Part shown: positions 35,311 through 61,313 of the stretch, piece by piece
Layout: each line of letters begins with the position of its first letter
Numbering within the stretch: position 1 is the stretch's first letter
Source of the DNA: Acidimicrobiales bacterium
GTDB taxonomy: Bacteria; Actinomycetota; Acidimicrobiia; Acidimicrobiales; AC-14
Direction: 5' to 3'
DNA: 64,000 nucleotides
Assembly (NCBI GenBank): GCA_036260295.1
Contig: DATAAD010000082.1
Location: forward strand, 9,965 to 73,964
Position numbers and translations under genes: made by a program
Notes under the pieces: generated by a model
Seen by the model: only the letters and a program-made list of their open reading frames with translations
Told to the model about the DNA's origin: nothing
Databases searched by the model: none

Positions 35311-35399
35311 CCGGGACCGGCGCGGCGCACCGCCGCGGCGCCACCTCGCCTCGGCTCCCGGGAGGTGCAAGACTCGGCGGTTCGGCGACGGAGGATCAC

Positions 35400-40210: not shown

Positions 40211-40226
40211 GCTGAGGAGGGGCGCC

Positions 40227-40739: not shown

Positions 40740-40740
40740 C

Positions 40741-41520: not shown

Positions 41521-41521
41521 C

Positions 41522-42346: not shown

Positions 42347-42357
42347 GGAGGTGGCAC

Positions 42358-45710: not shown

Positions 45711-45711
45711 G

Positions 45712-46694: not shown

Positions 46695-46704
46695 GGGGTC
46701 CCGC

Positions 46705-46989: not shown

Positions 46990-46992
46990 CGG

Positions 46993-48635: not shown

Positions 48636-48967
48636 CCGTGGGCATGCTGCTCAACGCCTCCACCCAGCTGCTCTGCCCCCACGGGGGCACGGTGACGGTG
48701 GTCACGACCAACACGCGGGCCAAGGCCGCCGGCGCCTTCATCCTGAGGTCCTCCGACACCTTCGTCGTCGCCGGGTGCCCGTTCACGGTCGGCCCCGTCG
48801 CCCACCCCTGCGTCAGCGTCAAGTGGGTGCAGCCGACGCTGCAGAGCAAGGAGGAGGGCGTGGCGACGCTGAGCGCCGACAGCGTCGGGGTGTGCCACGC
48901 CGCCGACCAGGCCGTCCAGGGGACGGTGACGGTGGCGTCGACGCAGTCCCAGGTCGGCGGGCGGTAG
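48632..48967 (+). CDS. PAAR-like / DUF4280-like spike tip protein
   Basis: ATG overlaps the upstream stop. 111 aa with LLCPHGGTV...AGCPF...HPC... conserved Cys/His spacing, as in PAAR-like cones. Confidence 0.55.
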   Translation: MTVGMLLNASTQLLCPHGGTVTVVTTNTRAKAAGAFILRSSDTFVVAGCPFTVGPVAHPCVSVKWVQPTLQSKEEGVATLSADSVGVCHAADQAVQGTVTVASTQSQVGGR

Positions 48968-48970
48968 GGG

Positions 48971-49345
48971 ATGGACCGCCGCGACTACGCCTACCCCTTC
49001 CGGATCGGCCCGTCGGGCCAGGCCGCGCAGTCGGGATACGCGGCCCACGTGGCCCAGATGGTGCACCAGGTGCTGCTGACCGCTCCGGGCGAACGGATCG
49101 ACGTGCCCGAGTTCGGGTGCGGCCTGCGCCGCATGCTGTTCGCGCCGCACACCGAGAGCCTCGACGCCACCACCCAGATCCTCGTGCGGTCCGCGCTCGA
49201 CCGGTGGCTGGGCGCCCACATCGACGTGCGCGACGTCCGGGTCGGGACCGGCGAGGGGGGCGACGAGGCCGAGCTCGTCGTGGTCGTCGAGTACGTCCTC
49301 CGGGAGGATCTCACCGCCGCCGAGACCCGGGTGCGGGTGCTCTGA
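48971..49345 (+). CDS. baseplate wedge protein GPW/gp25
   Basis: YPFRIGPSG...VHQVLLTAPGERIDVPEFGCGLRRMLFAP, typical GPW_gp25. Confidence 0.85.
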   Translation: MDRRDYAYPFRIGPSGQAAQSGYAAHVAQMVHQVLLTAPGERIDVPEFGCGLRRMLFAPHTESLDATTQILVRSALDRWLGAHIDVRDVRVGTGEGGDEAELVVVVEYVLREDLTAAETRVRVL

Positions 49346-49346
49346 G

Positions 49347-51782
49347 ATGGCGAGCCAGAGGGACCGCCTGAACGCGCTGCTGGGCCCCGCCAACACCACC
49401 TTCAACGGCATCGACTTCGTGGAGGTGGCGAGCGCCGACCAGCGCACGTTGCGGGTGCACTTCCACACCACGGTGCCGCTGGTGGGGACGGTGAGCGGGG
49501 CCGAGATCACGGGGGGCCAGGCCGTGCCGACCGTTGCCGTCCACCCCATCGACGACGCCACCGACTGGGCGACCGACGCCGCCGGCCGGCCGGTCCTCAC
49601 CCTCACCGTTCCCGTCGAGGGCGACTTCTCGTATTACACGCTCGGGCTGGCCAGCCCCGTTCTCGACCGCTACTTCGACCACGCCGTCTTCTCGTTCAAG
49701 GCCAACTGCCCGTCCGACGTCGACTGCGCCGACCTGATCCCGCCCTGCCCGTCGGACGACGGCGACCGGCCGCCCATCGACTACCTGGCCAAGGACTTCG
49801 AGAGCTTCCGCAAGGCACTCTCCGACTTCTCGGCGCTGCGGTACCCCGAGTGGCGGGAACGCGCCGAAGCCGACTTCGGCGTGATGTTCCTCGAAGCCCT
49901 GAGCGCGGTGGCGGACGACTTGAGCTACACCCAGGACCGGGTGGCCGCCGAGGCCACCCTGGCGACCGCGACCCAGCGGCGGTCGGTCGTCCGCCACGCC
50001 CGCCTCGTCGACTACGAGCCGGCGCCCGCCCGGTCGTCGTGCGTGACGCTGCAGTGCAACGTCACGACCGGCCCCGTTCCCGCGGGCGTCGTCGTCTCCG
50101 CGGACGGCCCGGACGGGGTGGCGGTCGAGTTCGAGACCGGCACGGGCCTGTCCGACACGAGCACCTACCAGGTCAGCGGCCTGTGGAACGGCGCACGCAA
50201 CGGCGCCGGCGGCATCGTCCCGTACTTCTGGGACGACAGCGAGCGCTGCCTGCCCGCCGGCTCGACCGAGATGTGGGTGCTCGGGCACGGCTTCTCCTTC
50301 TTCGAGGGCCAGGCCCTGCTCGTCGACACCCTCGGCGACACACCCGCCGACCCCCCCACCCGCCAGGTCGTCCGCCTCTCCCCCAGCCGGCCGACGTTGA
50401 CCGACTTCGCCGTGGAGGAAACGGACCCTCTGTTCCTCGACGGCACCGGGCAGCCCACCAAGGTGACCCATCTCCGGTGGGCTGCCGCGGACGCCCTGAC
50501 CGCGGCGCGCGACCTCACGCGCACGACGCTGGCGGGGAACCTCGTGCCGGCCACCCAGGGGCGCCGGTTCGTGGAGGCGTTCACCATCGAGCCGGCGCCG
50601 GTCGCGCCAGCGCCGGCGCTCCCGGTCGCGGCTCGACGGAGCGGCCCGAACGGAGGATGGGACGCTCCTGTGCCGCAGTACCTCTTCACCCTTCGCTTCG
50701 GGCGGCTGGCGTGGCTCGACGTCGACGCCGGCGACCGAGAGCACCGGCCCGTCCCCGAGATCTCCCTGTCCGAGCCACCGGTCCCGCCCTCGACCCAGGC
50801 AACCGACTGGACGTGGCGGCGCTCCCTGCTGGACGCCGACCCCTTCGAGCTGGCGTACACGGTCGACAGCGCTGCGTACCCGCCGATCGGGACGAACGCC
50901 GACGGGACCACTGCGTTCGACTACGACGGCGACGGGGGCGACACCGTCCGCTTCGGGGACGGCGTGTTCGGCGAGATCCCCGACGAGGGCGCCGTCTTCC
51001 ACGTGGCCTACCGGGTCGGATCGGGCGCGGCGGGCAACGTGGCGGCCGATTCGATCACGAGGGTCGACGCCTCGTCACCGCTCCCGGGCCTCGACGTCAC
51101 GAACCCGTTCCCGGCGGTCGGAGGAGGCGACGAGGAGCCCGACGAGACGGTCCGCCGCCTCGCCCCGGACGCGTTCCGGGCCCGCCAGTTCCGCGCCGTC
51201 CGCCGCCGCGACTACGAGGCCGCAGCCGAGACGCTTCCGTGGGTCCGCAGCGCGGGGACCACCTTCCGGTGGACGGGCAGCTGGCTCACCGTCTTCACGA
51301 CCGCCGACCCTCAGGCGAGCGAGCACATCCCGCCGGACCGCCACGCCCTGCTCGTCCGGCTGCTGAACCGCTACCGGTTGGCCGGCTACGAGTCCTACGT
51401 CCCCTCTCCGCGGTTCGTCGCCGTCGACCTGGAGATCGAGCTGTGCGCCCGCCCGGACGCCTTCCGGTCGGACGTCAAGCTCACCCTCCTGGCCACCCTC
51501 GGCACGGGCGTGCTGTCCGACGGCGGCCTCGGCTTCTTCCACCCCGACCGGTTCACGTTCGGCACCCCGCTGGAGCGCAGCGCCCTGGCCGCGGCCGTGC
51601 AGGGGTCGTTCGGAGTGGCCGGGGTGCTGGCCATCAGGTACCGCCGGCGGGGGCTGACCTCGACCTACGAGGACATGCCCGAGACCGTGGTCGTCGGGCC
51701 CGACCAGATCCTGCAGGTCGACAACGACCCCAACCGGCCGGGAGCAGGGTCGATCCGCCTGCTCGTGAAGTGCGGGAAGTGA
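49347..51782 (+). CDS. baseplate J-like protein (Afp11-like), paralog 1
   Basis: NPFPAVGGGDEEPDETVRRLAPDAFRARQFRAVRRRDYEAAAETLPWVRSA matches the Baseplate_J signature (GG.D.E....R..AP......RAVT..DYE). Confidence 0.8.
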   Translation: MASQRDRLNALLGPANTTFNGIDFVEVASADQRTLRVHFHTTVPLVGTVSGAEITGGQAVPTVAVHPIDDATDWATDAAGRPVLTLTVPVEGDFSYYTLGLASPVLDRYFDHAVFSFKANCPSDVDCADLIPPCPSDDGDRPPIDYLAKDFESFRKALSDFSALRYPEWRERAEADFGVMFLEALSAVADDLSYTQDRVAAEATLATATQRRSVVRHARLVDYEPAPARSSCVTLQCNVTTGPVPAGVVVSADGPDGVAVEFETGTGLSDTSTYQVSGLWNGARNGAGGIVPYFWDDSERCLPAGSTEMWVLGHGFSFFEGQALLVDTLGDTPADPPTRQVVRLSPSRPTLTDFAVEETDPLFLDGTGQPTKVTHLRWAAADALTAARDLTRTTLAGNLVPATQGRRFVEAFTIEPAPVAPAPALPVAARRSGPNGGWDAPVPQYLFTLRFGRLAWLDVDAGDREHRPVPEISLSEPPVPPSTQATDWTWRRSLLDADPFELAYTVDSAAYPPIGTNADGTTAFDYDGDGGDTVRFGDGVFGEIPDEGAVFHVAYRVGSGAAGNVAADSITRVDASSPLPGLDVTNPFPAVGGGDEEPDETVRRLAPDAFRARQFRAVRRRDYEAAAETLPWVRSAGTTFRWTGSWLTVFTTADPQASEHIPPDRHALLVRLLNRYRLAGYESYVPSPRFVAVDLEIELCARPDAFRSDVKLTLLATLGTGVLSDGGLGFFHPDRFTFGTPLERSALAAAVQGSFGVAGVLAIRYRRRGLTSTYEDMPETVVVGPDQILQVDNDPNRPGAGSIRLLVKCGK

Positions 51783-51846
51783 GCGAGCACCGAAGTGGAG
51801 CGGAGGAACGAGGCACGGAGGAACGCGGCCCGGAAGGCGGCGGGGC

Positions 51847-54291
51847 GTGACCGAGACCGTCTGCCCGTGCGACGTGTTCGTCCATCCCCGGCTCCCCCTG
51901 AACCCGCCTGGGCGGTCCTCGATCTCCTACCGGGCGGGTGAGTTCGCCTCCTTCCGCCACGCCCTGTTGCTGGCCCGGCCCGGCGAGAGACAGCTGACCC
52001 GTTGGCGACCCAGCCCCAACCGGGAGCTTCCGGTCCACGACCTGGCGCTGCAGATGGTCGAGTGGTGGGCCTACGTGGCCGACGTCCTCACCTTCTACAA
52101 CGAACGAATCGCCAACCAGGCGTACCTCCGTACTGCCGACCTGCCCGAGAGCGTGAGCCGCCTCATCCGGCTGCTGGGCTACCGGCCCCGCCCGGGGATC
52201 GGCGCGACGGGCGTCGTCGCCGCCCTGCTCGGCGCCGCCGGCCCAGGGACCGGCACGGTCACGCTGCCCGAGAACTTCCAGATCCAGAGCAAGCCGGGGC
52301 CCGGGCGGCGACCGCAGATCTTCGAGGTCGACACCGGCACCGTCGTCGGGCGGCCCGAGGTCGTCGCCGTCGACCCGCCGCCCGACCCGGCCCTCGTCAC
52401 CGTCGTCGCGGGCGACGAGACGGTGCTGCTGTCGGGTGCAGCCTCGAACCTGGAGGCGGGCGACCGCGTCCTCGTCCTGCCCGCCGGCTGGACCGGGTCG
52501 GGGGCGTTGACGCTGGCCACGGTCAAGTCGGTCACCGAGGAGCGCTTGCCTCGAGGCGCGCCGGCGACCCGGGTCGCGTTCTCCTCCCCGCTCGGGTTGG
52601 GCGGGGCGCAGGCCGCCGGCTACCGCGTGCTGCGGTCTACTCTGACCGCCCGATTGTGGCCCTACGCGGCCAACGCCGCCGTGGTCGTCACCTCGGCGAG
52701 CGCCCACCTCGACTCGGTGCACCGGCTGCTCGCGCCCGGCGACCCCGTCGTCCTCGAGGTGCCCGGAGGGGCCGCCGAGGAGCGGCGGCTGCTCAGGGTG
52801 GGAGCGACCAGCGAGCTGGTGTGGTTCGCCAACGGCAACCCGGCCGATCCGGCCACACCGCGGACGTCCCCGCCGCTCGACGCCAAGGAGACGCTCATCG
52901 GCATCCCCCACACCGTCGTGGGCTTCGCCGACCCGCTCCCCGGCGCCGACGTCAGCGCCCTCGGCGCGGTCAAGTCGAGCCTGGTGGCTGCCTTCGGGTG
53001 GCAGGAGGTCGGCCGGCCCATCCCCCGCCCGGCCCGCTCGATGGCCGTCGGCGACGCCCCCCTCGTGCTCACCGCCGTCGACGGCGCCGCTCTCCCGCCC
53101 ATGGGAGCCGGCGTGCCCGTGCTGGTCGAGGACGGGAGCGGCGCGGGCGTCCGGGGACTGGCCGCGGCCGGGACGGCCCCCGGTTCGGTCTCGGTGAGGG
53201 CCGCCACCCCCGCCACGACGCTGCACCCGCCCCTCCGGGCCCTCTTCGGGGTGGTGGGCGTCTCCCGGGGGGAGACCGTCCCGTTCGAGGTGCTCGGCAG
53301 CGGCGACGCCACCAAAGCCGTCCAGGTCTACACCCTCAAGCAGTCGCCGCTCACCTACCTGCCCGATCCCGACCCGTCGTCGTCCTCGCCGTACCGCAGC
53401 ACGCTGGAGGTGTTCGTGGACGGGGTTCGCTGGACGGAGGTCCCCAGCTTCTACGACCGGGGCCCCGGGGATCGCGTCTTCGTGACGCGCGAGATCGAGG
53501 ACGGGCACACCCAGGTGGTGAGCGGCGACGGCGTGCACGGGGCCCGGTTCCCATCGGGCTCCAACAACGTCACCGCGGCGTACCGGCACGGCAGCGGCGC
53601 CGTCTCGCCCGGCCCCGGCGGCCTCAGTGTGATCGTGAGGCCCCGGCCCGGGCTGAAGGCCATCCGCAACCCCGTCGCCGTCGGCGGCGGGTCCGACCCC
53701 GACCCGCCCGACCAGATCCGGCGTTACGCGCCGAAGTCGGTGCTCACCTTCGGCCGGGCCGTCTCGGCCGACGACTACGAGACCATCGCCGTCCAGGCCC
53801 CCGGCGTGGCCCGGGCCCGCTCCTACTGGGGGTGGGACGGGGGGCAGCAGCGTGCGGTGGTCACCGTCTTCGTCGGCGACGACGATGCCGCGGTCAGCTC
53901 CGCCGAGGTCGCCTTGGCCGCGGCCGACGACCCCAACCGGCCGGTCGTCGTCCGCCTGGCCACGCCCGTGACCGCCGGCCTGTTCCTCGCCTTCCGGTCG
54001 GACGGCTCCCGGCCGCGCGCCGCTCTGACGGCCGAGGTGCGAGCCGCGCTCTCGGCGCCGAGCGGGTTGTTCGGCGGCGAGGCGACTCGCATCGGCCACG
54101 GCGTCTACGAGAGCGAGGTCGACGGTGCCTGCCTGGCGGTGCCCGGCGTGGTGGCCGTCCACCGCCTCGTCTTCTTCGTCGACCGCGGGACGGGGTTCCA
54201 GCTCGAACCGGGGCCCCGGTTCGATCCCGGCGTCGGCGCCTTCTTCACCCTCTCACCCCAGCTGCTGTTCGTGTTCCAGGAGGGAGGCTGA
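51847..54291 (+). CDS. baseplate J-like protein, paralog 2
   Basis: NPVAVGGGSDPDPPDQIRRYAPKSVLTFGRAVSADDYETIAVQAPGVARA is a second Baseplate_J signature. GTG start. Confidence 0.8.
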   Translation: MTETVCPCDVFVHPRLPLNPPGRSSISYRAGEFASFRHALLLARPGERQLTRWRPSPNRELPVHDLALQMVEWWAYVADVLTFYNERIANQAYLRTADLPESVSRLIRLLGYRPRPGIGATGVVAALLGAAGPGTGTVTLPENFQIQSKPGPGRRPQIFEVDTGTVVGRPEVVAVDPPPDPALVTVVAGDETVLLSGAASNLEAGDRVLVLPAGWTGSGALTLATVKSVTEERLPRGAPATRVAFSSPLGLGGAQAAGYRVLRSTLTARLWPYAANAAVVVTSASAHLDSVHRLLAPGDPVVLEVPGGAAEERRLLRVGATSELVWFANGNPADPATPRTSPPLDAKETLIGIPHTVVGFADPLPGADVSALGAVKSSLVAAFGWQEVGRPIPRPARSMAVGDAPLVLTAVDGAALPPMGAGVPVLVEDGSGAGVRGLAAAGTAPGSVSVRAATPATTLHPPLRALFGVVGVSRGETVPFEVLGSGDATKAVQVYTLKQSPLTYLPDPDPSSSSPYRSTLEVFVDGVRWTEVPSFYDRGPGDRVFVTREIEDGHTQVVSGDGVHGARFPSGSNNVTAAYRHGSGAVSPGPGGLSVIVRPRPGLKAIRNPVAVGGGSDPDPPDQIRRYAPKSVLTFGRAVSADDYETIAVQAPGVARARSYWGWDGGQQRAVVTVFVGDDDAAVSSAEVALAAADDPNRPVVVRLATPVTAGLFLAFRSDGSRPRAALTAEVRAALSAPSGLFGGEATRIGHGVYESEVDGACLAVPGVVAVHRLVFFVDRGTGFQLEPGPRFDPGVGAFFTLSPQLLFVFQEGG

Positions 54292-54293
54292 CG

Positions 54294-56402
54294 TTGGCCG
54301 GCGACCACGACCACTACGAGGCGTACTACGCCGACCGGCTCTGGGCCCTGGTCCCCGCCGTGTACCGGGAAGAGGACGCCGGCCCGGACGGGACCACCGG
54401 CCCCTTGCGGGAGCTGGTGGACCGCGTCGGCGCCCAGGTGGCCGTCGTCCGGCGCAGCGTCGACCGGCTGTGGGAGGACCAGTCGATCGAGACGTGCGAC
54501 GACTGGGTCGTCCCGTACATCGGCGACCTGCTCGCCACCAACCTGGTCGCCGCCCTCGACGGCCGGGGCCAGCGCATCGACGTGGCCAGGACGATCTACT
54601 ACCGGCGCCGCAAGGGGACGCTGGGGATCCTGGAGGAGATCGCCTCCGACATCACGGGGTGGCACGCACGCGTCGTCGAGTTCTTCCGCACGATGGAGCG
54701 GAACCGGCACTGCCTCGACCCGGCGATCGGCCGTCCCGCCGACACCGCCGAGCCCGCCGCCCACCGCGACCTCCAAGCCGCGCAAGGGCTCGTCGGGCGG
54801 CGGACGTCGACCCCGCTCGGCGGGTACGCCGACCTGCGCGACGCGTACGGCTCCAGCCGGGCCCACTCGGCGTTCGACGAGTACTCCCACACCGCCGACC
54901 TCCGGGCCCCCCGGGGCCGGTCGGGGTGGCACAACATCCCCCGGCTCGGCGTCTTCCTGTGGCGCCTGCGCAGCTTCGCCGTCGTACTCGGGACGCCGGT
55001 CCCGGTCGCCGGCTGTCCCGGTCACTTCACCTTCGACCCGACCGGGCGCCTCGTCCCCCTCTTCGCCAAAGGGGGGCACCGCTTCGGCGACGACTGGGTC
55101 TCGCCGGAGGAGTGGCAGCTGCCCACCCCGATCGACCGGCGACTCCTGGACGCAGAGCGGGACCGCCTGTACCCGGCGTCGATCGAGGCCCTGCACCTCC
55201 AAGGCACCTTCTTCGACGGCGTGCCGTCGAGCATGGTGACCCTGCACCCGGAGCTGGGACGCTTCTCCGTCGGGCCCCCGCTGGCCGGCGACACCTTCCG
55301 GGTGGACTACCACTACGGCTTCTCGGCCGCCATCGGTGCCGGGCCCTACGACCGGCGGGTGGCACGGCGCAGCGTCGAGCCGCCGCCCTCGCCGGTGACG
55401 ACGGTCTCCGGCGGGGGCAACGTGCTCGCTGCCGCGGTCACGGGCCTCACCACCGGCACGGTGGTCGTCGGCGACTCGGCCACGTACGACGCGGTCGCCG
55501 ATGTCGGCACCGCGGCCGCCGGCATCCAGCATGTCCGCGTCGCGGCCGGCAACCGGGAGCGGCCGGTCGTCCGCCTGGCCGGCCCCGCGGCCTGGGCGTT
55601 CACCGGCGAGGACGGGTCCCGCCTCGATCTCACGGGCCTGCTGGTGAGCGGGGCCGATGTCGTCCTGCGGGGTCGCTTCGACACCGTCCGGATCTCCTCC
55701 TGCACCTTCGACCCCGGTGGCTCGGGCCTCGACCACCTTCCCCCTGCCGTCCTGGCCACCGCGGTCGACGGACGCGCCCTGGCGCCGACCAGGCTGTGGG
55801 TAGAGGCCCAGGTCCGGCGGCTGGAGGTCGCCGACTCCATCCTCGGTCCCGTCCGCACCCGAGCCGGCGGCGACGTCGGCGAGCTCGTGGTCCGCGACAG
55901 CATCATGCAGGCCGTTCGAACCACCGACCAGGGGTCCGGCCAGCCTCCCGACACGGTGCTCGACCTGGCCAGCGGCGGTGTCGTCCTCGACCGGTGCACC
56001 GTGCTCGGTCCGGGCCGGGTGCACCGCCTCGACGCCAGCGAGTGCGTCCTCGACGACGTTCTGGCGGTCGAGGACCGCCAGAACGGCTGCGTCCGCTTCA
56101 CGGCCTGGGCCACGGGCAGCACCCTGCCCCGCCGGTACGAGTCGGTGGAGGTCGCACCCGGAGCGTCGCTCTTCACCAGCCGGGTCTACGGCCACCCCGG
56201 CTTCTGCCAGCTGCTGGGTCACGTGGACCGGCGGATCGTCGCCGGCAAGACCGGCGCGTCGATCGCCGAAGGCGGCCCCCTGGGGTCCGAGATGGGTGCC
56301 TTCGCCCGCGAGCTGGGACCGGTCCGCCAGCGCAGCATCCGCATCAAGTACCAGGAGTTCATGCCGCTCGGCCTCGACCCTGCCGTCGTGAACGTGACGT
56401 GA
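54294..56402 (+). CDS. baseplate wedge protein (P2 gpI / Afp12-like phage tail protein)
   Basis: TTG at 54294 after AGGAGGGAGG. YYADRLWALVPAVYREED...CDDWVVPYIGDLLATNLV... is typical of the gpI-like family that follows Baseplate_J. Confidence 0.7.
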   Translation: MAGDHDHYEAYYADRLWALVPAVYREEDAGPDGTTGPLRELVDRVGAQVAVVRRSVDRLWEDQSIETCDDWVVPYIGDLLATNLVAALDGRGQRIDVARTIYYRRRKGTLGILEEIASDITGWHARVVEFFRTMERNRHCLDPAIGRPADTAEPAAHRDLQAAQGLVGRRTSTPLGGYADLRDAYGSSRAHSAFDEYSHTADLRAPRGRSGWHNIPRLGVFLWRLRSFAVVLGTPVPVAGCPGHFTFDPTGRLVPLFAKGGHRFGDDWVSPEEWQLPTPIDRRLLDAERDRLYPASIEALHLQGTFFDGVPSSMVTLHPELGRFSVGPPLAGDTFRVDYHYGFSAAIGAGPYDRRVARRSVEPPPSPVTTVSGGGNVLAAAVTGLTTGTVVVGDSATYDAVADVGTAAAGIQHVRVAAGNRERPVVRLAGPAAWAFTGEDGSRLDLTGLLVSGADVVLRGRFDTVRISSCTFDPGGSGLDHLPPAVLATAVDGRALAPTRLWVEAQVRRLEVADSILGPVRTRAGGDVGELVVRDSIMQAVRTTDQGSGQPPDTVLDLASGGVVLDRCTVLGPGRVHRLDASECVLDDVLAVEDRQNGCVRFTAWATGSTLPRRYESVEVAPGASLFTSRVYGHPGFCQLLGHVDRRIVAGKTGASIAEGGPLGSEMGAFARELGPVRQRSIRIKYQEFMPLGLDPAVVNVT

Positions 56403-56414
56403 GGAAGGAGCGGC

Positions 56415-59400
56415 ATGGGCAGTGACCGAGCTCGCGTGTCCTACGACAAGACCCGGCAGTACCGCGCCGTGGTGGCGCAGCAGGGGCGGGTGGCGTTGGA
56501 GGCCGACACCAACGAGGGATGGACGATCGGCGCCGAGGAGGCCCGCGAGGAGGCCCTCGACTTCGTCGGACCGGTGGGGACACCCGACGACGGCTACGCC
56601 CTGTCCCCTACCGGCGGCGGGACGTACGACTTCGTCATAGGGCCCGGGACCATGTATGTCGGCGGCGTCCGGACGTCCCTCGCCGACTTTGTGAAGTACA
56701 GCGCCCAGGACGAATGGCTCGACCGCGACGGCGACCCCGACTGGGTGCCCGTCTCCCCGCCGGCCGATCACGGGAGCGCCAGCGAGCTGATCTACGAGGA
56801 GCTGCGCGAGGTCGAGGTGAGCGCCACCGAGGACCACGCCCTGCGCGAGGTGGCCCTCGGCGGTCCCGACACCTCCCAGCGGAGCCGGCTCGTCCAACGG
56901 ACGAAGCGATTCGCCACCGACGCCCGTACCTGCAGTGCAGCCCTGGACGACCTCGCCGCCCACTGGCTCCAGCGCGGCCTGCAGTTCGACCCGGGCACCA
57001 TGCGGCTGCGGTCCTCGGCCACACTGAAGGCGTCGTACCCACCGGTGCCCGCCCCCGCCGACCCCTGCGAGCCCGACGCCCAGAACGGCTACCTGGGCGC
57101 CGACAACCAGCTCATCCGCGTGCAGATCGCGTCGTGGGACGAGGCCAACCACCGAGGGACACTGCTGTGGGGCTTCGACGGCGCATCCTTCCTCTACCGG
57201 GTGACGGTGGTGAACCCCAACCTCGTCCGCCTTCTGTCGAGGCCACCCGACGACGCCCACCAGCCCCGGCCCAACCAGGCGGTCGAGGTCCTGCGGACGG
57301 CGGCCCGGCTCAGCCCCGCCGAGCCCGGCAACGTGGTGGCGTCGCCAACCGGAGCGGTCTTCACCCTCACCGGCGCCTACGTCCCGGACACCCAGCAGGT
57401 CGCCCTCCCGGGGGGAGGCCTGCCGGCCGCCTACCTCGACGGGGCCAAGACGCCCGCGGTCTTCCTGCGGGTCTGGGAACAGGCACTGCCCTTCACCCGG
57501 GGGACGGCCGTCCCCCTCGGCGGGACCGGGCTGCGGGTCACGCTCGACATCACGGGGGCCGGGACCTTCAGCCCGGGCGACTACTGGCTGGTGGCGGTAC
57601 GGCCCAGCACGCCCGAGCTGGTCTACCCCCACCGGTTCCTGGACGTCCCTCAGCCCCCTGACGGCCCCCGGCTGTGGGCCTTCCCGCTGGGCGTCGTCGA
57701 TTTCGTGCCTCGACCAACCGGCACCGACAAGGTGGTAATGACCGTCCTCGAGGACTGTCGGAACCGCTTCGAGGGGTTGGTGGAGCTGACCCGACGACGC
57801 GACACGGGATGTTGCGACGTCGTGGTGCGCGCCGAGGACCTCGACGACACCAGGACACTGCAGACCGTCCTCGACCGGTTCGCCGACCGAGAGGCGGTGA
57901 CGATCTGCCTCAAACCCGGGCGCTACGAGCTCCGGGCGCCGCTGAAACTCGGCCCCGAGCACTCCAACTTCACGATCGAGGCCTGCCACGACGGCGCCGT
58001 CCTGGCTGCCGCCCCGGGCACGGCCGACCGTTTCGGGGAGGGCCTGGTGGTGCTCAACCGGGCCAACAACGTGACGCTCAGGGGCCTGCGGTTCCTCCTG
58101 CCCCAGGTCCGGCTTCGAGCCGCCGACCATCTGACCACGGCTGCGGGGATGCGGCGGGCCGCGGGCGACCAGTTCGCCAACTTCAACATCTCGATCGGGA
58201 TCCGGCCCGTCCATTGCGCCGTCCTGACCGTCGAGAGCTGCCTGTTCCGCTTCTCGGTCGAGCCCGAACGTGACTGCTTCTCGGCCGGGATCTTCGCCGC
58301 CAGCGAGTGCTGGGGCCACGTCGTCCGCAACAACCGCTTCATCCGGGACGAGGACGCCCTCCGTGTCGACGAGTCGCCGGTTCGCCTGCTGTACGGCTAC
58401 CTCCTCACGTCCTCCCTGTTCAGGACGGCCAGGCAGGACTACGTGGAACCCTGTCTGCTCCAGGACGCATCCTTCCAGGACAATCGGTTCGAGGGGCTGG
58501 CGGGGGCGGTGCTGGTGCAAGGCGAGCTCGGGCTCATCGAGCTCGAGAGCAACACGGTTCGCGACTGCATCAACGGGTTCGTGTTCCTGACCGACGCGGC
58601 GGCCGCCGCGCCGGTGATCACTCGCAGCGTCGTCGTCCTCGCCCACCAACAGGACGAGGCCAAGGAGCTGCAGTCGGGGATCGTCAGCCCGCTGCAGTCC
58701 CCGGTGGCCAAGCTGGGGACCCAGCTGGCCCGCGCGTACACCCTCCCCGCGGACTACACCAAGGCCGGCATCGCCGTCGACGACGAGGTGGGGGCCAAGG
58801 CCGAGGAAGCGGTCCTGGCCGCCTACCAGCACTTCTTCGACAGCACGCTGTCGGCCGGCCCGCCGAGGGCGGCGACGGACGAGGCGGCCGCCGGCGGCAA
58901 GAAGCTGGGGCCGGCATCGGGTCCGCCCGAGTACGACTGCCTGTACAGGAGCCGGGCCATGGCCAAGAACGAGTCCCTGGACTCCCGGCTGGTACGCGCC
59001 AGCCGGGTGGTCTTCGGCGGGTTCAGACGCCACGGCCTCCGACTGTCCCTCCGGGTCACCGGGAACGACGTCGCTTCGCTCCTCGAGGACGGCGAGTCGG
59101 GGTCGAGCCTGCTGGTCTACGGCGAGCGGGGCCAGCCCGGCAACCTGACCATGGTCGGCGGCCGGTTCCGCAATCGCTCGCCGCACTCGGTCACGGTCGG
59201 CGCCTTTCTGGTCGACACCTGTGCGGTGGCCGGCAACGTCGTGGTGAACGAGACGGGCGTCAGCATCTTCCTCCTCCCGGGCTCGGGTGGAATCGCCGCC
59301 CGAGGCAAGGAGACCGTTGCCGTGACCGGCAACGTCTTCGAGGGACGGACCCAGCTGCCGCCGCGTCCCGGCGCCCTTCCTCCTCCCATGAACCAGTGGA

Positions 59401-59423
59401 ACTCCTACAACGCCGTCGTCTGA
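56415..59423 (+). CDS. DUF6519-like N-domain fused to right-handed beta-helix repeats (candidate distal baseplate / target-recognition protein)
   Basis: N-terminal YDKTRQYRAVVAQQGRVALEADTNE (QQGRV.L.AD.NE motif). The C-half has repeated NN-x-T/V-hydrophobic-x-G/N turns (NNVTLRGLRF, RNNRFIRDE, QDNRFEGL, ESNTVRDCINGF, VAGNVVVNE, VTGNVFEG). Confidence 0.65.
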   Translation: MGSDRARVSYDKTRQYRAVVAQQGRVALEADTNEGWTIGAEEAREEALDFVGPVGTPDDGYALSPTGGGTYDFVIGPGTMYVGGVRTSLADFVKYSAQDEWLDRDGDPDWVPVSPPADHGSASELIYEELREVEVSATEDHALREVALGGPDTSQRSRLVQRTKRFATDARTCSAALDDLAAHWLQRGLQFDPGTMRLRSSATLKASYPPVPAPADPCEPDAQNGYLGADNQLIRVQIASWDEANHRGTLLWGFDGASFLYRVTVVNPNLVRLLSRPPDDAHQPRPNQAVEVLRTAARLSPAEPGNVVASPTGAVFTLTGAYVPDTQQVALPGGGLPAAYLDGAKTPAVFLRVWEQALPFTRGTAVPLGGTGLRVTLDITGAGTFSPGDYWLVAVRPSTPELVYPHRFLDVPQPPDGPRLWAFPLGVVDFVPRPTGTDKVVMTVLEDCRNRFEGLVELTRRRDTGCCDVVVRAEDLDDTRTLQTVLDRFADREAVTICLKPGRYELRAPLKLGPEHSNFTIEACHDGAVLAAAPGTADRFGEGLVVLNRANNVTLRGLRFLLPQVRLRAADHLTTAAGMRRAAGDQFANFNISIGIRPVHCAVLTVESCLFRFSVEPERDCFSAGIFAASECWGHVVRNNRFIRDEDALRVDESPVRLLYGYLLTSSLFRTARQDYVEPCLLQDASFQDNRFEGLAGAVLVQGELGLIELESNTVRDCINGFVFLTDAAAAAPVITRSVVVLAHQQDEAKELQSGIVSPLQSPVAKLGTQLARAYTLPADYTKAGIAVDDEVGAKAEEAVLAAYQHFFDSTLSAGPPRAATDEAAAGGKKLGPASGPPEYDCLYRSRAMAKNESLDSRLVRASRVVFGGFRRHGLRLSLRVTGNDVASLLEDGESGSSLLVYGERGQPGNLTMVGGRFRNRSPHSVTVGAFLVDTCAVAGNVVVNETGVSIFLLPGSGGIAARGKETVAVTGNVFEGRTQLPPRPGALPPPMNQWNSYNAVV

Positions 59424-59501: not shown

Positions 59502-61313
59502 GTGCTGAGTGCGCCGACGACCGAGTCGTCCGCCCGGGCCAGCGCCCCTCGGGCGGCTGCGCCTCGCTCCGTCCCCGCCCGCGCCCGTCCCGTCCTCCGG
59601 GCCAGCGCCGTCCCCACCGGTGCTCACCTCCTGCAGCGGGCGTGCTCGACGAAGGGGCCCGTCGACGCGGCCCACGAATGCGCCGAGTGCCGCGCCGGCC
59701 GGGCCTCTCGGGCCGGCGGCCGGGCCGGGCCGCCGGTGGTGGCCCCCTCTCGGGCCCCCATCGCCGTGCAGCGAGCCTGTGCCTGCGGGCCGGGTGCCGG
59801 AGGCAGTTGTGACGGCTGTGCCCAGGAGGTGTCGCCGTTGAGGCGGCGGGCTGTCGACGGCCATGCCATCGGCGCACCGGCCGCCCCCCCAGTGGCCGCG
59901 GCCGCCCTCCGCGCGGGCGGCGTTCCCCTCGACGGCTCGACCCGGGCGTCGCTCGAACCCCGCTTCGGCCGAGACCTCGGTGCCGTCCGGGTGCACTCGG
60001 ACTCGGTCGCCGCCGCCGGGGCGGCCGCTGTCGGTGCTCGGGCCTACACCGTCGGGGCCCACATCGTCTTCGGAGCCGGCCAGTACGCCCCAGCCACCGC
60101 CGAAGGCCGCCGGCTGCTGGCCCACGAGCTCACCCACGTGCTCCAGCAGGGCCCGGTGGCGGCTCCGGGCGGGTCGTCGCTCGAGGTCGGCGCGGCCGAC
60201 AGCCCCTTCGAGCGGGAGGCCGACCGGGTGGCGGATGCCGTGGTGCGCGGGCTCGACCTCCCTGTCGTCGTCCCGGGCGGCCCGCCCGCGCTACGGAGAG
60301 CGTGCGGGGAGGCTGCCATCGGGCCGCCGCCTCCCGGGTGCAACCTCACCTTCGCCACCCCCAGCGGCGCACGGTTCCTCTTCAACCGCGCGTGCGACGA
60401 CTGGGCGCCGGGGCAGCAGGCCGCGTTCGAGAGCGCGGTCGACGCGGTGGTTCCCGGAGCCACCGTCAACCTCTTCGGGATCGCCAGCACCGACGGGCCG
60501 GTCGGGTTCAACCTCAGCCTTTCGTGCGCCCGGCTGGCGGAGGCCCGCGCCATCGTCGTCGCCAAGGGCAAGAGTGGTCAGCTGCGGAGGAGCGAGGCCG
60601 TCGGCCCGCAGGGGTTGGCCGGGGACGTCACATTCCGGGCCGTGGCCATGGAGGTCATCGGGCCGGCGCCCCCGCCTCCGCCGGCGGCGACCACGACCCG
60701 GACCTTCGAGGTCGTCGTGAAGAGCTTCATCCGCACCATCGGCACGACCGCGGGCGCGATGTTCTGCCCGACCTTCCTCGGCGACCCGTTCGTCGGTCCT
60801 ACCGCTCGGCTGCAGGGCTTGGCCGTGGCGACCGACCTCATGTTCAGCGAGACCGCTCCGACCGCGGCCAAGGACACGCACTACAGGCTGTTCTCCCGGC
60901 GGACGTTCACGTTGACGTGCCGCCACGGCGTCCCGGTCTCGGCCCGGGCCTCGGCCCTGGACACCGACGTGGGCCTCGAGGGCCCGTTGGTGCCGCCGCC
61001 GCTGATCATCTTCACCGACACCGTCACACCGACACCGACCGGCGGGCTGCACTTCTCCTGGTCGGGGGAGGGCCGGCCCCATCTGGCCGCCGAGCCCGCG
61101 TTCCAGAGCATCTGTCCCCGGCTCTCGGTCTTCATCTGGCACCACATCGAGGGCGACGTGGATTGCGGAGGCGTTCGCATCACCGCCTTCAGCGGGAGCC
61201 GCTTCCCGAGCCGCCGGGCCTACGTCGACGGGGTGGTGACGCGCGACGTCCATCAGGGGACGTTCAACCGGCTCTGGGAATCGGCCCCGGGCGCACCGAC
61301 CCGGGTCCGCTGA
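59502..61313 (+). CDS. DUF4157 (HExxH) domain protein with OmpA-like segment and unknown C-terminal domain; candidate CIS cargo/effector
   Basis: LQRAC...C..C and VQRACAC...C..C motifs. LEPRFGRDLGAVRVHSD...ARAYTVGAHIVFGAGQYAP...GRRLLAHELTHVLQQG. VNLFGIASTDGPVGFNLSLSCARLAEARAIVVAKG resembles OmpA/MotB C-domains. Start codon uncertain. Confidence 0.75.
   Translation: MLSAPTTESSARASAPRAAAPRSVPARARPVLRASAVPTGAHLLQRACSTKGPVDAAHECAECRAGRASRAGGRAGPPVVAPSRAPIAVQRACACGPGAGGSCDGCAQEVSPLRRRAVDGHAIGAPAAPPVAAAALRAGGVPLDGSTRASLEPRFGRDLGAVRVHSDSVAAAGAAAVGARAYTVGAHIVFGAGQYAPATAEGRRLLAHELTHVLQQGPVAAPGGSSLEVGAADSPFEREADRVADAVVRGLDLPVVVPGGPPALRRACGEAAIGPPPPGCNLTFATPSGARFLFNRACDDWAPGQQAAFESAVDAVVPGATVNLFGIASTDGPVGFNLSLSCARLAEARAIVVAKGKSGQLRRSEAVGPQGLAGDVTFRAVAMEVIGPAPPPPPAATTTRTFEVVVKSFIRTIGTTAGAMFCPTFLGDPFVGPTARLQGLAVATDLMFSETAPTAAKDTHYRLFSRRTFTLTCRHGVPVSARASALDTDVGLEGPLVPPPLIIFTDTVTPTPTGGLHFSWSGEGRPHLAAEPAFQSICPRLSVFIWHHIEGDVDCGGVRITAFSGSRFPSRRAYVDGVVTRDVHQGTFNRLWESAPGAPTRVR

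What the first reader, a model, noticed from the sequence alone, without database searches (positions are those of the whole stretch)
59502..61313. Downstream DUF4157 protein with duplicated (L/V)QRAC Cys motifs, an OmpA-like segment and a ~300-aa unknown C-terminus: second cargo candidate
Seen in sequence: the gene lies on the same strand, 79 nt after the last structural gene. It has two Cys motifs (LQRACSTKGPVDAAHECAEC and VQRACACGPGAGGSCDGC) and the DUF4157 core with HELTHVLQQG. Next comes FLFNRACDDW...VNLFGIASTDGPVGFNLSLSCARLAEARAIVVAKG, which resembles the OmpA/MotB peptidoglycan-binding signature (GHTD..G....N..LS..RA). A Pro-linker follows, then about 300 aa with no motif I recognise. 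Inference: a peptidoglycan-binding module on a CIS-linked HExxH protein suggests a cell-envelope-directed activity. Two different DUF4157 proteins bracketing one CIS locus suggests a modular cargo set.
Basis: partly seen in the sequence, partly recalled or inferred. Interest (0 to 1): 0.7.

Follow-up and report, generated by a model that had tools for sequence, protein, structure and literature searches.

The report
CIS cargo with undescribed envelope-toxin domain
The last gene of a phage-tail-like injection system in an Acidimicrobiales genome encodes a typical "cargo" protein whose tail end combines a cell-wall-binding module with an undescribed, probably toxic domain that other bacteria also deliver on Rhs toxins and secreted proteins.

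Summary
ORF 59502-61313 (+, 603 aa) lies 78 nt after the last CIS gene. It contains the Cys motifs, a strong DUF4157/eCIS_core domain with HELTH, an OmpA-like segment, a Pro linker and an unannotated C-terminus.

Corrections:
- There are three (L/V)(Q/R)RAC motifs, not two.
- The unknown C-terminus is about 207 aa, not about 300.
- NCBI's start (codon 113) cuts off a motif conserved in homologs.

What the parts are:
- The Cys motif "LQRxCxCG...CxxC" is a family-wide N-terminal feature of DUF4157 proteins (108 of 120 homologs).
- Pfam misses the OmpA-like segment. An AlphaFold model matches Pal/OmpA/MotB/YfiB (Foldseek prob 1.0, TM 0.65-0.74), and a small profile hits YfiB.
- The C-terminal domain (CTD) belongs to a family of about 480 clusters with no Pfam model and essentially no solved relative.
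- The CTD is terminal in 151 of 164 representatives. It sits after the DPxGL end of two Rhs proteins, behind Sec signals, and after OmpA/PG-binding domains.
- The CTD is linked to DUF4157 in three independent CIS loci and has two covarying Cys pairs, which imply disulfides.

Best reading: a CIS-delivered effector acting on the envelope. The activity is unknown and nothing has been tested experimentally. It is a new member of the known DUF4157 effector class and carries an undescribed domain.

The parts
59502..61313 (+). Whole gene: 603-aa DUF4157 / OmpA-like / CTD protein, stop codon included
   Evidence: ORF list. The codon-position GC pattern fits this frame throughout. The same ORF occurs on an independent assembly, L006.
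59502..59924 (+). N-terminal low-complexity region, aa 1-141 (A37 R17 P16 G15 S11 of 141). Putative disordered loading region.
   Evidence: Composition. By analogy to the disordered N-terminal domains needed to load the AlgoCIS cargos (bioRxiv 10.64898/2026.05.27.728243). The true start is uncertain: candidates are GTG 59502, GTG at aa 79, GTG at aa 89, and TTG at aa 113, which NCBI uses.
59631..59690 (+). Cys motif 1, LQRACSTKGPVDAAHECAEC (aa 44-63). An extra, partly degenerate upstream copy.
   Evidence: It resembles the family motif LQRxCxCG...ECxxC.
59766..59819 (+). Cys motif 2, VQRACACGPGAGGSCDGC (aa 89-106). The canonical DUF4157-family N-terminal CxC...CxxC motif.
   Evidence: It lies 119 aa before HELTH, within the 118-122 aa spacing seen in 108 of 120 homologs. 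The paralog has the same motif.
59925..60152 (+). eCIS_core / DUF4157 domain (aa 142-217), including HELTH at 60123-60137
   Evidence: Pfam PF13699, E 1.7e-31. A home-built DUF4157 HMM hits 59919-60224.
60291..60341 (+). Third motif, LRRACGEAAIGPPPPGC (aa 264-280), which opens the OmpA-like module
   Evidence: Conserved in P0003 and P0004 (alignment A5) and in P0202.
60354..60671 (+). OmpA-C-like (peptidoglycan-binding-type) domain, aa ~285-390, beta-alpha-beta-alpha-beta-beta. Contains the signature ASTD331G....N..LS.CAR344.
   Evidence: AlphaFold model, overall pLDDT 84.9. Foldseek against PDB: Pal, OmpA, OprF, YfiB, MotB, TagL, prob 1.0, TMt mostly 0.55-0.74. Profile A5 hits YfiB at E 0.007. 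Pfam OmpA hits in aligned homologs.
60660..60695 (+). Pro-rich linker GPAPPPPPAATT (aa 387-398)
   Evidence: A Pro-rich linker at the same place in OmpA-CTD homologs.
60690..61310 (+). C-terminal domain 'CTD' (aa 397-603): an uncharacterised beta-rich domain. Conserved residues: K407 S408 E450 Y461 R462 G491 E493 R540 W546 H547 S566 F568 Q585 W592. Two covarying Cys pairs: C422-C538 and C473-C555.
   Evidence: Model pLDDT 96.4, pTM 0.91. The only significant structural neighbour is 3c5p, BAS0735, of unknown function. No Pfam, NCBIfam or PDB-sequence hit. 484 representative clusters. Conservation and Cys covariation.
34758..36782 (+). The other DUF4157 gene at the 5' edge of the locus (core at 35742-36047). 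It has the same Cys motif and a different, Cys-rich, unannotated C-terminus.
   Evidence: Pfam PF13699, E 3.7e-29. Translation. HMM hit.
43635..45710 (+). CIS AAA+ ATPase (WHD + AAA), the presumed cargo loader
   Evidence: Frame plot. Pfam AAA E 1.3e-28 and WHD E 5.4e-05.
38669..59423 (+). CIS structural gene block: sheath, tube, Pvc16_N, ATPase, tube-like, GPD-like, gp25, Baseplate_J, two unannotated large genes, DUF6519
   Evidence: Pfam scans.

Best explanation
The gene encodes a cargo (effector) of the adjacent contractile injection system, built from four modules.

1. **N-terminus.** An Ala/Arg/Pro/Gly-rich region carries one canonical and one extra copy of the DUF4157-family CxC...CxxC motif. 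I infer that it is the loading or attachment region used by the locus's AAA+ ATPase or spike complex.
2. **DUF4157/eCIS_core domain.** This HExxH domain is the generic CIS-effector accessory domain. Its role is unknown. In AlgoCIS it is dispensable for loading. In Streptomyces DUF4157 proteins were reported to associate with the spike complex.
3. **OmpA-like domain.** I infer that it tethers the protein to peptidoglycan.
4. **CTD.** This roughly 207-aa domain is the toxic or active moiety. I infer that it works outside the cytoplasm, in the periplasm or cell wall of a target cell, stabilised by two disulfides, on an unidentified envelope substrate.

Shown: the domain composition, the fold of the OmpA-like module, the distribution and architectures of the CTD family, and the CIS linkage. 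Inferred: loading, injection, peptidoglycan binding, toxicity and the compartment of action.
For: **Position and class.**
- The gene is the last gene of a complete CIS locus.
- The eCIS_core hit is strong.
- The NTD-DUF4157-CTD layout matches described cargos (PMC8213781, PMC11297309, bioRxiv 10.64898/2026.05.27.728243).

**CIS linkage.** The OmpA-like+CTD module recurs with DUF4157 in two other CIS loci.
- P0004 is fused to DUF4157 and sits among three DUF4157 genes after the ATPase in L001/L002.
- P0005 lies at the 3' end of L013/L014, directly after a small DUF4157 ORF.

**CTD behaves like a polymorphic-toxin tip.**
- It ends within 15 aa of the C-terminus in 151 of 164 representatives.
- It follows the canonical Rhs core end ('...DPSGL', '...DVLGL') in P0154 (3197 aa) and in the L012 protein (1918 aa).
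- P0154 is followed 13 nt later by a 169-aa protein with a signal peptide, which is the usual position for an immunity gene.

**Extracytoplasmic action.**
- Fifteen representatives have a Sec or lipoprotein signal directly before the CTD.
- Partner domains among 77 representatives are OmpA (26), PG_binding_1 (18) and SH3_3 (2); one long protein (P0079) also carries Amidase_2 and three carry Peptidase_S8.
- Two Cys pairs covary as pairs: 70 both / 11 one / 64 neither, and 101 / 12 / 32.

**OmpA-like fold.**

**Many invariant polar residues suggest an enzyme.** R462, R540, S566 and Q585 are 100% conserved; K407, E493 and H547 are at least 97%.
Against: - There is no experiment of any kind.
- No candidate immunity gene follows the target. 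The next features are bS22 on the opposite strand and tRNA-Gln, and the P0154-linked protein has no homolog in the window.
- The producer is an actinobacterium. The actinobacterial CISs studied so far (Streptomyces) act from inside the cell, so injection into a foreign periplasm is an assumption.
- The target has Arg at position 571, where 86% of the family has His. The other DUF4157-fused members P0003 and P0004 have Asp there. Either this residue is not catalytic, or the CIS-linked branch has a changed or lost activity.
- In 13 of 164 representatives the CTD does not end at the C-terminus; several of these look like fragments, but at least P0009, P0013 and P0030 carry the CTD N-terminal to a PLA2 or LCAT-like lipase domain. 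This fits a targeting or membrane-binding role as well as a toxic one.
- Most contexts of the family are not CIS loci.
- The OmpA-like segment does not reach any Pfam threshold on its own.
Confidence: 0.62

Rival explanations
1. The DUF4157 HExxH domain is itself the toxin: a Tpe1/VgrG2b-C-ter-like periplasmic zinc metallopeptidase. The OmpA-like domain and the CTD only localise it to the cell wall or membrane.
For: - HELTH is intact and is followed about 25 aa later by FEREAD, a possible third ligand.
- The VgrG2b C-terminal domain is frequently annotated as DUF4157 and is a periplasm-acting, HExxH-dependent bacteriolytic toxin (PMC6899460).
- A peptidoglycan-binding partner would fit periplasmic action.
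- The CTD sometimes sits in front of lipase domains, as a targeting module might.
Against: - phmmer of the whole protein against PDB sequences finds no metallopeptidase structure, VgrG2b included, at E<=10.
- For Cgo1, growth inhibition was reported to be independent of the DUF4157 metalloprotease motif (as cited in PMC11297309).
- DUF4157 is found with hundreds of unrelated C-terminal toxins, which suggests a generic accessory role (PMC8213781).
- The CTD is the only domain after the Rhs cleavage motif in two Rhs proteins, where the tip is normally the toxin.
- No periplasmic immunity gene lies downstream.
Confidence: 0.12
2. The protein is not an injected toxin. It is an accessory or adaptor protein of the particle, like Sle2 of Streptomyces lividans, which links another effector to the spike. 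Alternatively it is a cell-wall-remodelling or lysis factor that helps release or position the CIS in the producer.
For: - Streptomyces DUF4157 proteins associate physically with the spike complex (pull-down of Sle2 with predicted spike-complex proteins; co-elution of BN159_7576 with the tagged tip protein), and Sle2 also binds another effector (PMC13277306, PMC11126660).
- There is no immunity gene.
- eCIS release needs cell lysis (PMC8213781), and a peptidoglycan-binding protein with an unknown enzyme-like domain could serve that purpose.
- OmpA-like domains anchor other contractile machines, such as TagL of the T6SS, which is among the fold hits.
Against: - The protein has no signal peptide or transmembrane segment, so it could not reach the producer's own wall (sequence).
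- The CTD occurs at Rhs tips and behind Sec signals in genomes where no CIS genes were seen in the up to 10 kb of flanking sequence examined.
- The disulfide covariation argues for function outside a cytoplasm.
- The Sle2-type adaptors are small proteins made of little besides DUF4157.
Confidence: 0.16
3. The CTD is a binding or translocation module (membrane, lipid or receptor binding) rather than an enzyme. The protein perturbs the envelope by binding or pore formation, or the CIS-linked branch is catalytically dead.
For: - The fold is beta-rich with no match to any enzyme fold.
- The CTD is fused in front of PLA2 and LCAT-type lipases, which need membrane targeting.
- His571, conserved in 86% of the family, is replaced by Arg in the target and Asp in P0003/P0004.
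Against: About fifteen invariant or near-invariant polar and aromatic residues over 210 aa, across 145 sequences only about 30-50% identical, is more typical of an active site than of a binding surface. No amphipathic or hydrophobic stretch suggests a pore former.
Confidence: 0.1

Closest known systems
eCIS-associated toxins with an N-terminal DUF4157 domain (EATs; Geller et al. 2021, PMC8213781; Danov et al. 2024, PMC11297309) and the AlgoCIS cargos Cgo1/Cgo2
   Same: - 3'-terminal position in a CIS operon.
- Low-complexity N-terminus, then a DUF4157 HExxH core, then a variable C-terminal domain.
- A second DUF4157 gene in the same locus.
- An AAA+ ATPase in the locus.
- Danov et al. already note that 68 predicted EATs carry a peptidoglycan-binding domain.
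   Different: The C-terminal domain belongs to a family with no Pfam or NCBIfam model, and I found no description of it in the papers read. The peptidoglycan-binding module is a divergent, Cys-containing OmpA-like domain that Pfam misses. The host is an Acidimicrobiales MAG. Loading and toxicity are untested.
Rhs / polymorphic toxin C-terminal toxin domains
   Same: The CTD is almost always the last domain. It follows the DPxGL end of the Rhs core in two proteins. It is combined with many delivery and targeting modules, and it is followed by a small signal-peptide protein in one Rhs locus.
   Different: The target itself is not an Rhs protein. No immunity gene lies next to it. No shared immunity family was found among the loci examined.
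OmpA-C-like peptidoglycan-binding domains (Pal, OmpA C-terminal domain, MotB, YfiB, TagL; PF00691)
   Same: The beta-alpha-beta-alpha-beta-beta fold (TMt 0.65-0.74 to Pal, OmpA and YfiB). The signature G-x-A-S-x-D-G-x4-N-x2-L-S-x2-R, with an acidic residue (D331) and an Arg (R344) at the positions that I recall binding diaminopimelate in OmpA-like domains.
   Different: - No Pfam hit for the target sequence.
- The loop between the acidic residue and the Asn is two residues shorter than in GHTDxxGxxxxN proteins.
- The terminal NRRV motif is degenerate (FRAV).
- There are four extra Cys residues (C268, C280, C298, C342).
- There is no signal peptide or membrane anchor.
Tpe1 / VgrG2b C-terminal metallopeptidase T6SS effectors (PMC6899460)
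   Same: An HExxH domain frequently annotated DUF4157, delivered by a contractile machine, with a periplasmic site of action.
   Different: There is no detectable sequence match to any solved metallopeptidase structure, VgrG2b C-ter included, and no downstream periplasmic immunity gene. Here DUF4157 is an internal domain followed by two further domains.
BAS0735 of Bacillus anthracis (PDB 3c5p, unknown function)
   Same: The only significant structural neighbour of the CTD model (Foldseek E 1.5e-4, prob 1.0).
   Different: TM is only 0.43-0.46, rmsd about 16 A and identity 10%. A profile search gives no sequence-level match, and the function of BAS0735 is unknown. It gives no functional lead.

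Membership tests
DUF4157 / eCIS_core (PF13699) | Pfam HMM score above the gathering threshold | tested here: met
   108.7 bits against a cutoff of 22, E 1.7e-31, aa 142-217 covering model positions 1-76 of 79.
DUF4157 / eCIS_core (PF13699) | HExxH zinc-binding motif | tested here: met
   HELTH at aa 208-212.
DUF4157 / eCIS_core (PF13699) | Metallopeptidase activity or zinc binding | not testable with these tools
   This needs biochemistry. The domain's role is unresolved in the literature (PMC8213781; bioRxiv 10.64898/2026.05.27.728243).
eCIS-associated toxin (EAT) / CIS cargo | Encoded within or next to a CIS operon, typically at the 3' end | tested here: met
   The gene starts 78 nt after the last CIS gene, on the same strand. 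The locus contains sheath, tube, Pvc16_N, AAA+, GPD-like, gp25 and Baseplate_J genes.
eCIS-associated toxin (EAT) / CIS cargo | Disordered N-terminal loading sequence | tested here: inconclusive
   Only composition was examined: 68% of aa 1-141 are A, R, P, G or S. No disorder predictor was run, and the start codon is uncertain.
eCIS-associated toxin (EAT) / CIS cargo | Physically loaded into or ejected by the particle | not testable with these tools
   This needs particle purification and mass spectrometry.
eCIS-associated toxin (EAT) / CIS cargo | Toxic to a target cell | not testable with these tools
   This needs expression assays in the cytoplasm and in the periplasm.
OmpA family peptidoglycan-binding domain (PF00691) | Pfam HMM hit | tested here: not met
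   No PF00691 hit for the target at E<=1. Five of the 21 aligned homologs in A1 and 26 of 77 representatives do score PF00691.
OmpA family peptidoglycan-binding domain (PF00691) | OmpA-C-like fold | tested here: met
   The top 28 Foldseek hits of the aa 255-603 model are all OmpA-like peptidoglycan-binding domains (Pal, OmpA, OprF, YfiB, TagL, PorE), prob 1.0, TMt 0.55-0.74 apart from two full-length OmpA chains at 0.32-0.33, rmsd mostly 2-3.5 A over about 105 columns (up to about 8 A for OprF and PorE). MotB appears lower in the list. Profile A5 hits YfiB at E 0.007.
OmpA family peptidoglycan-binding domain (PF00691) | Conserved acidic and Arg residues of the peptidoglycan (DAP) binding site | tested here: inconclusive
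   D331 and R344 are present in the ASTDG....N..LS.CAR signature and are invariant in A5. The loop is 2 residues shorter, and no residue-level structural superposition was available.
OmpA family peptidoglycan-binding domain (PF00691) | Binds peptidoglycan | not testable with these tools
   This needs a pull-down with aa 264-395.
Polymorphic-toxin (Rhs-type) C-terminal toxin domain | Occupies the extreme C-terminus behind varied delivery modules | tested here: met
   151 of 164 representatives end within 15 aa of the CTD. The N-terminal partners include DUF4157, RHS, Peptidase_S8, Amidase_2, PG_binding, OmpA, SH3 and signal peptides.
Polymorphic-toxin (Rhs-type) C-terminal toxin domain | Follows the Rhs core-terminating DPxGL motif | tested here: met
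   P0154: '...NDPTCVVDPSGL', then the CTD about 25 aa later. L012 protein: '...NNAVGFWDVLGL', then the CTD.
Polymorphic-toxin (Rhs-type) C-terminal toxin domain | Cognate immunity gene immediately downstream | tested here: inconclusive
   A 169-aa protein with a signal peptide starts 13 nt after P0154. There is none after the target, and no shared downstream family was found among 8 loci.
Tpe1 / VgrG2b-C-ter metallopeptidase effectors | Sequence similarity to the solved VgrG2b C-terminal domain, and a downstream periplasmic immunity gene | tested here: not met
   phmmer against all PDB sequences at E<=10 returned only an unrelated dihydropyrimidinase. The downstream features are bS22 and tRNA-Gln.

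The most novel reading that the evidence does not exclude
The CTD is a new enzymatic, disulfide-stabilised toxin family that acts on the envelope and has a fold with no characterised relative. It is delivered by at least three routes: CIS via DUF4157, Rhs, and Sec or lipoprotein export. In this locus a Gram-positive-type Acidimicrobiales bacterium would use an extracellular CIS to place a peptidoglycan-tethered toxin into the periplasm of diderm competitors. In addition, the family-wide N-terminal CxC...CxxC motif would be a zinc-knuckle-like recognition element for CIS loading. A related GCGxxCxCxxC motif is seen on stand-alone CTD proteins.
Probability: 0.25. Interest if true: 0.65.

Novelty: new member of a known kind. 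Interest (0 to 1): 0.42.

Why it matters
Most predicted CIS effectors have C-terminal domains of unknown function: 983 of 1130 DUF4157 EATs have no second annotated domain (PMC11297309). For this gene the unknown domain can be tied to a defined family of about 480 clusters.

Rhs tips, Sec signals, peptidoglycan-binding partners and paired-Cys covariation all point to an extracytoplasmic, probably antibacterial activity. The model is confident (pLDDT 96) and there is a short list of invariant residues to mutate. That makes it a practical candidate for discovering a new envelope-targeting toxin activity.

The work also shows two more things. The 'LQRxCxCG..CxxC' motif is a general N-terminal feature of DUF4157 proteins, relevant to the open question of how CIS cargo is recognised. 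Automated annotation can cut this motif off by choosing a late start codon.

If the protein turns out to be an ordinary accessory protein, little is lost. The class itself is already well known.

Tried and rejected
**Searches for a CTD annotation or relative that found nothing**
- Pfam on the target and on 52 family members at E<=1, and NCBIfam on the target.
- phmmer and profile searches against PDB sequences.
- Foldseek against BFVD viral structures: nothing below E 0.08.
- tblastn of the CTD against the plasmid and phage collections: no match.
- Literature search for BAS0735, 3C5P and DUF3238: no relevant paper.

**Weak or uninformative matches**
- The Foldseek hit to the Fusarium 'protein D' defoliating toxin (9fei, E 0.016, TM about 0.3). 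That protein is itself described as a unique fold of unknown mechanism (PMC13439237).
- The genome-contig scan with the 52-sequence alignment failed because no stretch was conserved enough. With the 18-sequence alignment a single strict pattern returned only 4 loci, so that scan says little about the family's true frequency.

**Ideas considered and dropped**
- A shared immunity family downstream of CTD genes. All-against-all BLAST of neighbours in 8 loci found only the L005/L010 synteny, which involves unrelated genes. The P0154-linked 169-aa protein has no homolog in the window.
- The conserved unannotated cluster around Cys-motif CTD genes (L003, L015, L016, L018) might be a cryptic CIS. It has no sheath, tube or baseplate hits. 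One of its small proteins carries an H..GRAADI...DHIH motif that looks to me like a LAS-type peptidase rather than a tube protein. That reading is by eye and was not tested.
- The CTD as an ADP-ribosyltransferase, a colicin-M-like toxin or a GH-type hydrolase. The motif order does not fit the ART R-S-E pattern, and Foldseek found none of these folds.


Full report
**1. The observation**

The window is high-GC (0.66-0.76). The identical protein is annotated in NCBI as 'MAG TPA: DUF4157 domain-containing protein [Acidimicrobiales bacterium]'.

ORF 59502-61313 (+) encodes 603 aa from a GTG, which is the first start after an in-frame TAG. GC at the third codon position is 0.75-1.0 in this frame along the whole ORF, although the first ~300 nt are compositionally flat.

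The gap to the previous gene (56415-59423, DUF6519) is 78 nt. Pfam finds one domain, PF13699 'eCIS_core' (the former DUF4157), at aa 142-217, E 1.7e-31. NCBIfam and a PDB sequence search find nothing.

Three corrections apply:
- There is a third motif, LRRACGEAAIGPPPPGC (aa 264-280).
- The region after the Pro linker is about 207 aa, not about 300.
- NCBI starts the protein at TTG codon 113 (491 aa). This removes both N-terminal Cys motifs.

**2. The locus**

Pfam scans show a complete contractile injection system on the + strand:

| Coordinates | Gene |
|---|---|
| 38669-40210 | sheath |
| 40227-40739 | gp19-type tube |
| 42358-43638 | Pvc16_N |
| 45960-46694 | tube-like |
| 46993-48123 | GPD-like spike |
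| 48971-49345 | gp25 |
| 49347-51782 | Baseplate_J |
| 51847-54291, 54125-56425 | two large unannotated genes |
| 56415-59423 | DUF6519 |

- The AAA+ ATPase was hidden inside a longer ORF. The frame plot and Pfam place it at about 43635-45710, with WHD + AAA domains.
- A second DUF4157 gene (34758-36782) and a BTAD regulator sit at the 5' edge.
- The block lies between tatD/ksgA on one side and bS22, tRNA-Gln, glmU and prs on the other.

**3. The Cys motifs**

- The paralog at 34758-36782 has 'VRLQRACTCASGGSGGGCSACQDTDAGSLRRVPV' immediately before its core. This nearly superimposes on the target's 'VQRACACGPGAGGSCDGCAQEVSPLRRRAVDG'.
- Among the 120 best homologs of aa 1-255, 108 carry 'LQR[KA]CACG-x(6-8)-C-x2-C'. 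It usually lies at residue 20-30 and 118-122 aa before HExxH.
- The target's motif 2 is 119 aa before HELTH, so it is the canonical copy. Motif 1 is an additional upstream copy.
- The 108/120 count is inflated, because the query contained the motif.
- I found no discussion of this motif in the CIS papers I read.
- Because the motif is a conserved coding feature, the NCBI start is probably too late. Whether translation begins at 59502 or at the GTG of codon 79 cannot be decided here.

**4. The OmpA-like segment**

Pfam does not detect it in the target. Three independent lines support it.

- **Alignment with homologs.** A search with aa 255-603 found 23 proteins. In their alignment the target's 'VNLFGIASTDG..FNLSLSCAR' columns align with segments that score PF00691 in 5 of the 21 aligned sequences, including P0005, P0007, P0012 and P0016.
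- **Structure.** An AlphaFold model of aa 255-603 (pLDDT 84.9) has a beta-alpha-beta-alpha-beta-beta unit at aa ~285-390. Its top 28 Foldseek PDB hits are all peptidoglycan-binding OmpA-like domains (Pal, OmpA, OprF, YfiB, TagL, PorE), with MotB lower in the list: prob 1.0, TMt mostly 0.55-0.74.
- **Profile.** A profile built only from the four DUF4157-linked segments hits YfiB (E 0.007) and, more weakly, other OmpA-family chains.

An acidic residue (D331) and an Arg (R344) occupy the signature positions, but the intervening loop is two residues shorter than in GHTD..G....N proteins. Peptidoglycan binding itself is untested.

**5. The C-terminal domain (CTD, aa 397-603)**

*No annotation or close structural relative.*
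- The model built from a 52-sequence alignment is very confident (pLDDT 96.4, pTM 0.91). It is a beta-rich domain with three helices.
- Foldseek against PDB gives one significant hit, BAS0735 (3c5p, unknown function; E 1.5e-4, but TM only 0.43-0.46). Nothing else falls below E 0.01.
- The viral library gives nothing.
- No Pfam model matches any of 52 members at E<=1.
- There is no profile hit in PDB sequences.
- There is no match in the plasmid or phage collections.

*Family size and architectures.*
- A profile search of 1.84 billion representatives finds 484 clusters at E<=1e-3, of which 186 are at E<=1e-30.
- The CTD ends within 15 aa of the C-terminus in 151 of 164 representatives.
- Partner domains among 77 mid-length representatives are OmpA (26), PG_binding_1 (18), PG_binding_3 (13), eCIS_core (12), RHS_repeat (3), SH3_3 (2) and LCAT/lipase (1).
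- Long proteins combine Peptidase_S8, PG_binding and OmpA with the CTD, one of them (P0079) also with Amidase_2. One 3197-aa protein (P0154) combines Laminin_G_3 and RHS repeats with the CTD.
- In P0154, and in a 1918-aa Verrucomicrobia Rhs protein (L012), the CTD starts right after the canonical Rhs core end (...DPSGL / ...DVLGL).
- P0154 is followed 13 nt later by a 169-aa protein with a signal peptide.
- Fifteen representatives have a Sec signal directly before the CTD. A further Polyangiaceae protein (L011) has a lipoprotein signal before it.
- A few members carry the CTD before a PLA2 or LCAT-type lipase domain.

*Conserved residues.*
- Across 145 full-length CTDs, R462, G491, R540, S566, F568, Q585 and W592 are invariant. 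K407, E493, P526, W546 and H547 are at least 97% conserved.
- The target has R571 where 86% have His. P0003 and P0004 have Asp there.

*Cys covariation.* Four Cys positions covary strictly in pairs:

| Pair | Both Cys | One only | Neither |
|---|---|---|---|
| C422-C538 | 70 | 11 | 64 |
| C473-C555 | 101 | 12 | 32 |

This is the pattern expected for two disulfide bonds, and so for a protein that functions outside the cytoplasm.

*Taxa.* The named taxa are Acidimicrobiales, Acetobacteraceae, Acidobacteriaceae, Polyangiaceae, Verrucomicrobia and Nitrospiraceae. All are MAGs.

**6. Link to CIS**

Besides the window, the OmpA-like+CTD module is tied to DUF4157 in two other CIS loci.
- P0004 (DUF4157-OmpA-like-CTD, 534 aa) is one of three consecutive DUF4157 genes after the AAA+ ATPase in L001/L002.
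- P0005 (OmpA-CTD, 360 aa) lies at the 3' end of L013/L014, directly after a small DUF4157 ORF, and another DUF4157 ORF follows.

Other family members sit in non-CIS contexts. This is expected for a module shared among delivery systems.

**7. Mechanism**

Published work supplies the frame.
- DUF4157 marks eCIS effectors and sits N-terminal to varied toxins (PMC8213781, PMC11297309).
- In AlgoCIS the disordered N-terminal domain is required for loading, while DUF4157 and the CTD are dispensable (bioRxiv 10.64898/2026.05.27.728243).
- In Streptomyces, DUF4157 proteins associate with spike-complex proteins (PMC11126660, PMC13277306).
- A DUF4157-annotated domain is a periplasmic toxin in VgrG2b (PMC6899460).

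On this basis the most likely reading (about 0.6) is a CIS-delivered effector. Its OmpA-like domain tethers it to peptidoglycan, and its CTD carries out an unknown, probably enzymatic, attack on the envelope.

Rival readings:
- DUF4157 itself is the toxin (about 0.12).
- The protein is an adaptor or release factor rather than an injected toxin (about 0.16).
- The CTD is a binding or pore module, or the CIS-linked branch is inactive (about 0.10).

Main weaknesses: there are no experiments, there is no immunity gene next to the target, characterised actinobacterial CISs act intracellularly, and the target has the R571 substitution.

**8. Novelty and score**

The class (DUF4157 effector at the 3' end of a CIS operon, sometimes with a peptidoglycan-binding domain) is established, so the gene is a new member of a known kind. 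The additions are:
- the definition of an undescribed CTD family, with coherent evidence for extracytoplasmic toxin-like use;
- structural confirmation of a cryptic OmpA-like domain;
- the recognition that the Cys motif is a family-wide N-terminal feature that current annotation truncates.

Interest is moderate at 0.42: a good, testable toxin-discovery lead, not a surprise to specialists.

Noticed in passing
window 61367-61465 (-): A 32-aa ORF, MGSLIKKRRKRMRKKKHKKMLKATRWQRRAGR, lies convergent with the target gene and 53 nt from its stop. It matches NCBIfam NF047430, 30S ribosomal protein bS22 (51.2 bits, cutoff 34). In the mechanical ORF list it is buried at the end of a spurious 295-aa ORF.
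   Followed up: yes
window 61704-62813 (+): The glmU ORF is only 369 aa. It matches positions 6-356 of a 488-position GlmU model, and its score is below the equivalog cutoff. prs starts 10 nt after its stop, so the C-terminal part of the acetyltransferase domain appears to be missing. This could be a truncation, a frameshift or an assembly error.
   Followed up: partly
window 33797-63794: The ~26.5-kb CIS block (34758-61313) sits between tatD/ksgA and bS22, tRNA-Gln (61588-61661), glmU and prs. From memory, these housekeeping genes are neighbours in other actinobacteria. This looks like an island next to a tRNA gene, although its GC content does not differ from the flanks.
   Followed up: partly
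window ~43635-45710 (+): The CIS AAA+ ATPase (WHD + AAA) is not visible as its own ORF. It is the 3' two-thirds of ORF 42351..45710, whose 5' part overlaps the Pvc16_N gene in another frame.
   Followed up: yes
window 34758-36782 (+) and 36553-37686 (+): The first DUF4157 ORF probably starts near its internal Met (about aa 215); the upstream part is Gly/Arg-rich. Its C-terminal ~200 aa are Cys-rich with no Pfam hit, so it is a second unknown cargo domain. The ORF overlaps the BTAD regulator ORF by about 230 nt, so one of the two boundaries is wrong.
   Followed up: partly
window 41550-42300: GC is high (0.76-0.92) at all three codon positions, so no reading frame stands out. Two overlapping ORFs (40902..42209, 40931..42346) have no Pfam hit. 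What is encoded between the 40741-41520 gene and the Pvc16_N gene is unresolved.
   Followed up: no
L003 1-11600; L015 283-9575; L016 1-10106; L018 427-15632; the contig of P0013/P0030: Stand-alone CTD proteins with an N-terminal GCGxxCxCxxC motif sit in a conserved same-strand cluster of unannotated genes (about 464-488, 263-293, 156-175, 151-173, 446-462 and 156-186 aa). The surrounding genes include PLA2, an LCAT-like lipase, trypsin-like, M35-like and metallophosphatase genes plus a methyltransferase. The 151-173-aa protein has an H..GRAADI...DHIH motif that looks LAS-peptidase-like. No CIS markers were detected.
   Followed up: partly
L013 9465-11083 and L014 5382-7000: The DUF4157 core upstream of the OmpA-CTD gene P0005 is split over two reading frames (hits at 9714-9857 and 9845-9973) in two independent assemblies. 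A frameshifted or recoded DUF4157-OmpA-CTD fusion is possible.
   Followed up: no
L007/L008 17607-18116 (+): A 169-aa protein with a signal peptide and a lipobox-like LAMSC sequence starts 13 nt after the Rhs-CTD gene P0154. It is a candidate periplasmic immunity protein. It has no Pfam hit and no homolog in the window or in the other loci.
   Followed up: partly
L005 and L010: PG_binding/OmpA-CTD genes in two Acidobacteria-type contigs share synteny: an aminotransferase gene upstream and a sigma-54 activator gene downstream. L005 also has an Amidase_2 gene next to the CTD gene. This points to a conserved non-CIS chromosomal context for the module.
   Followed up: no
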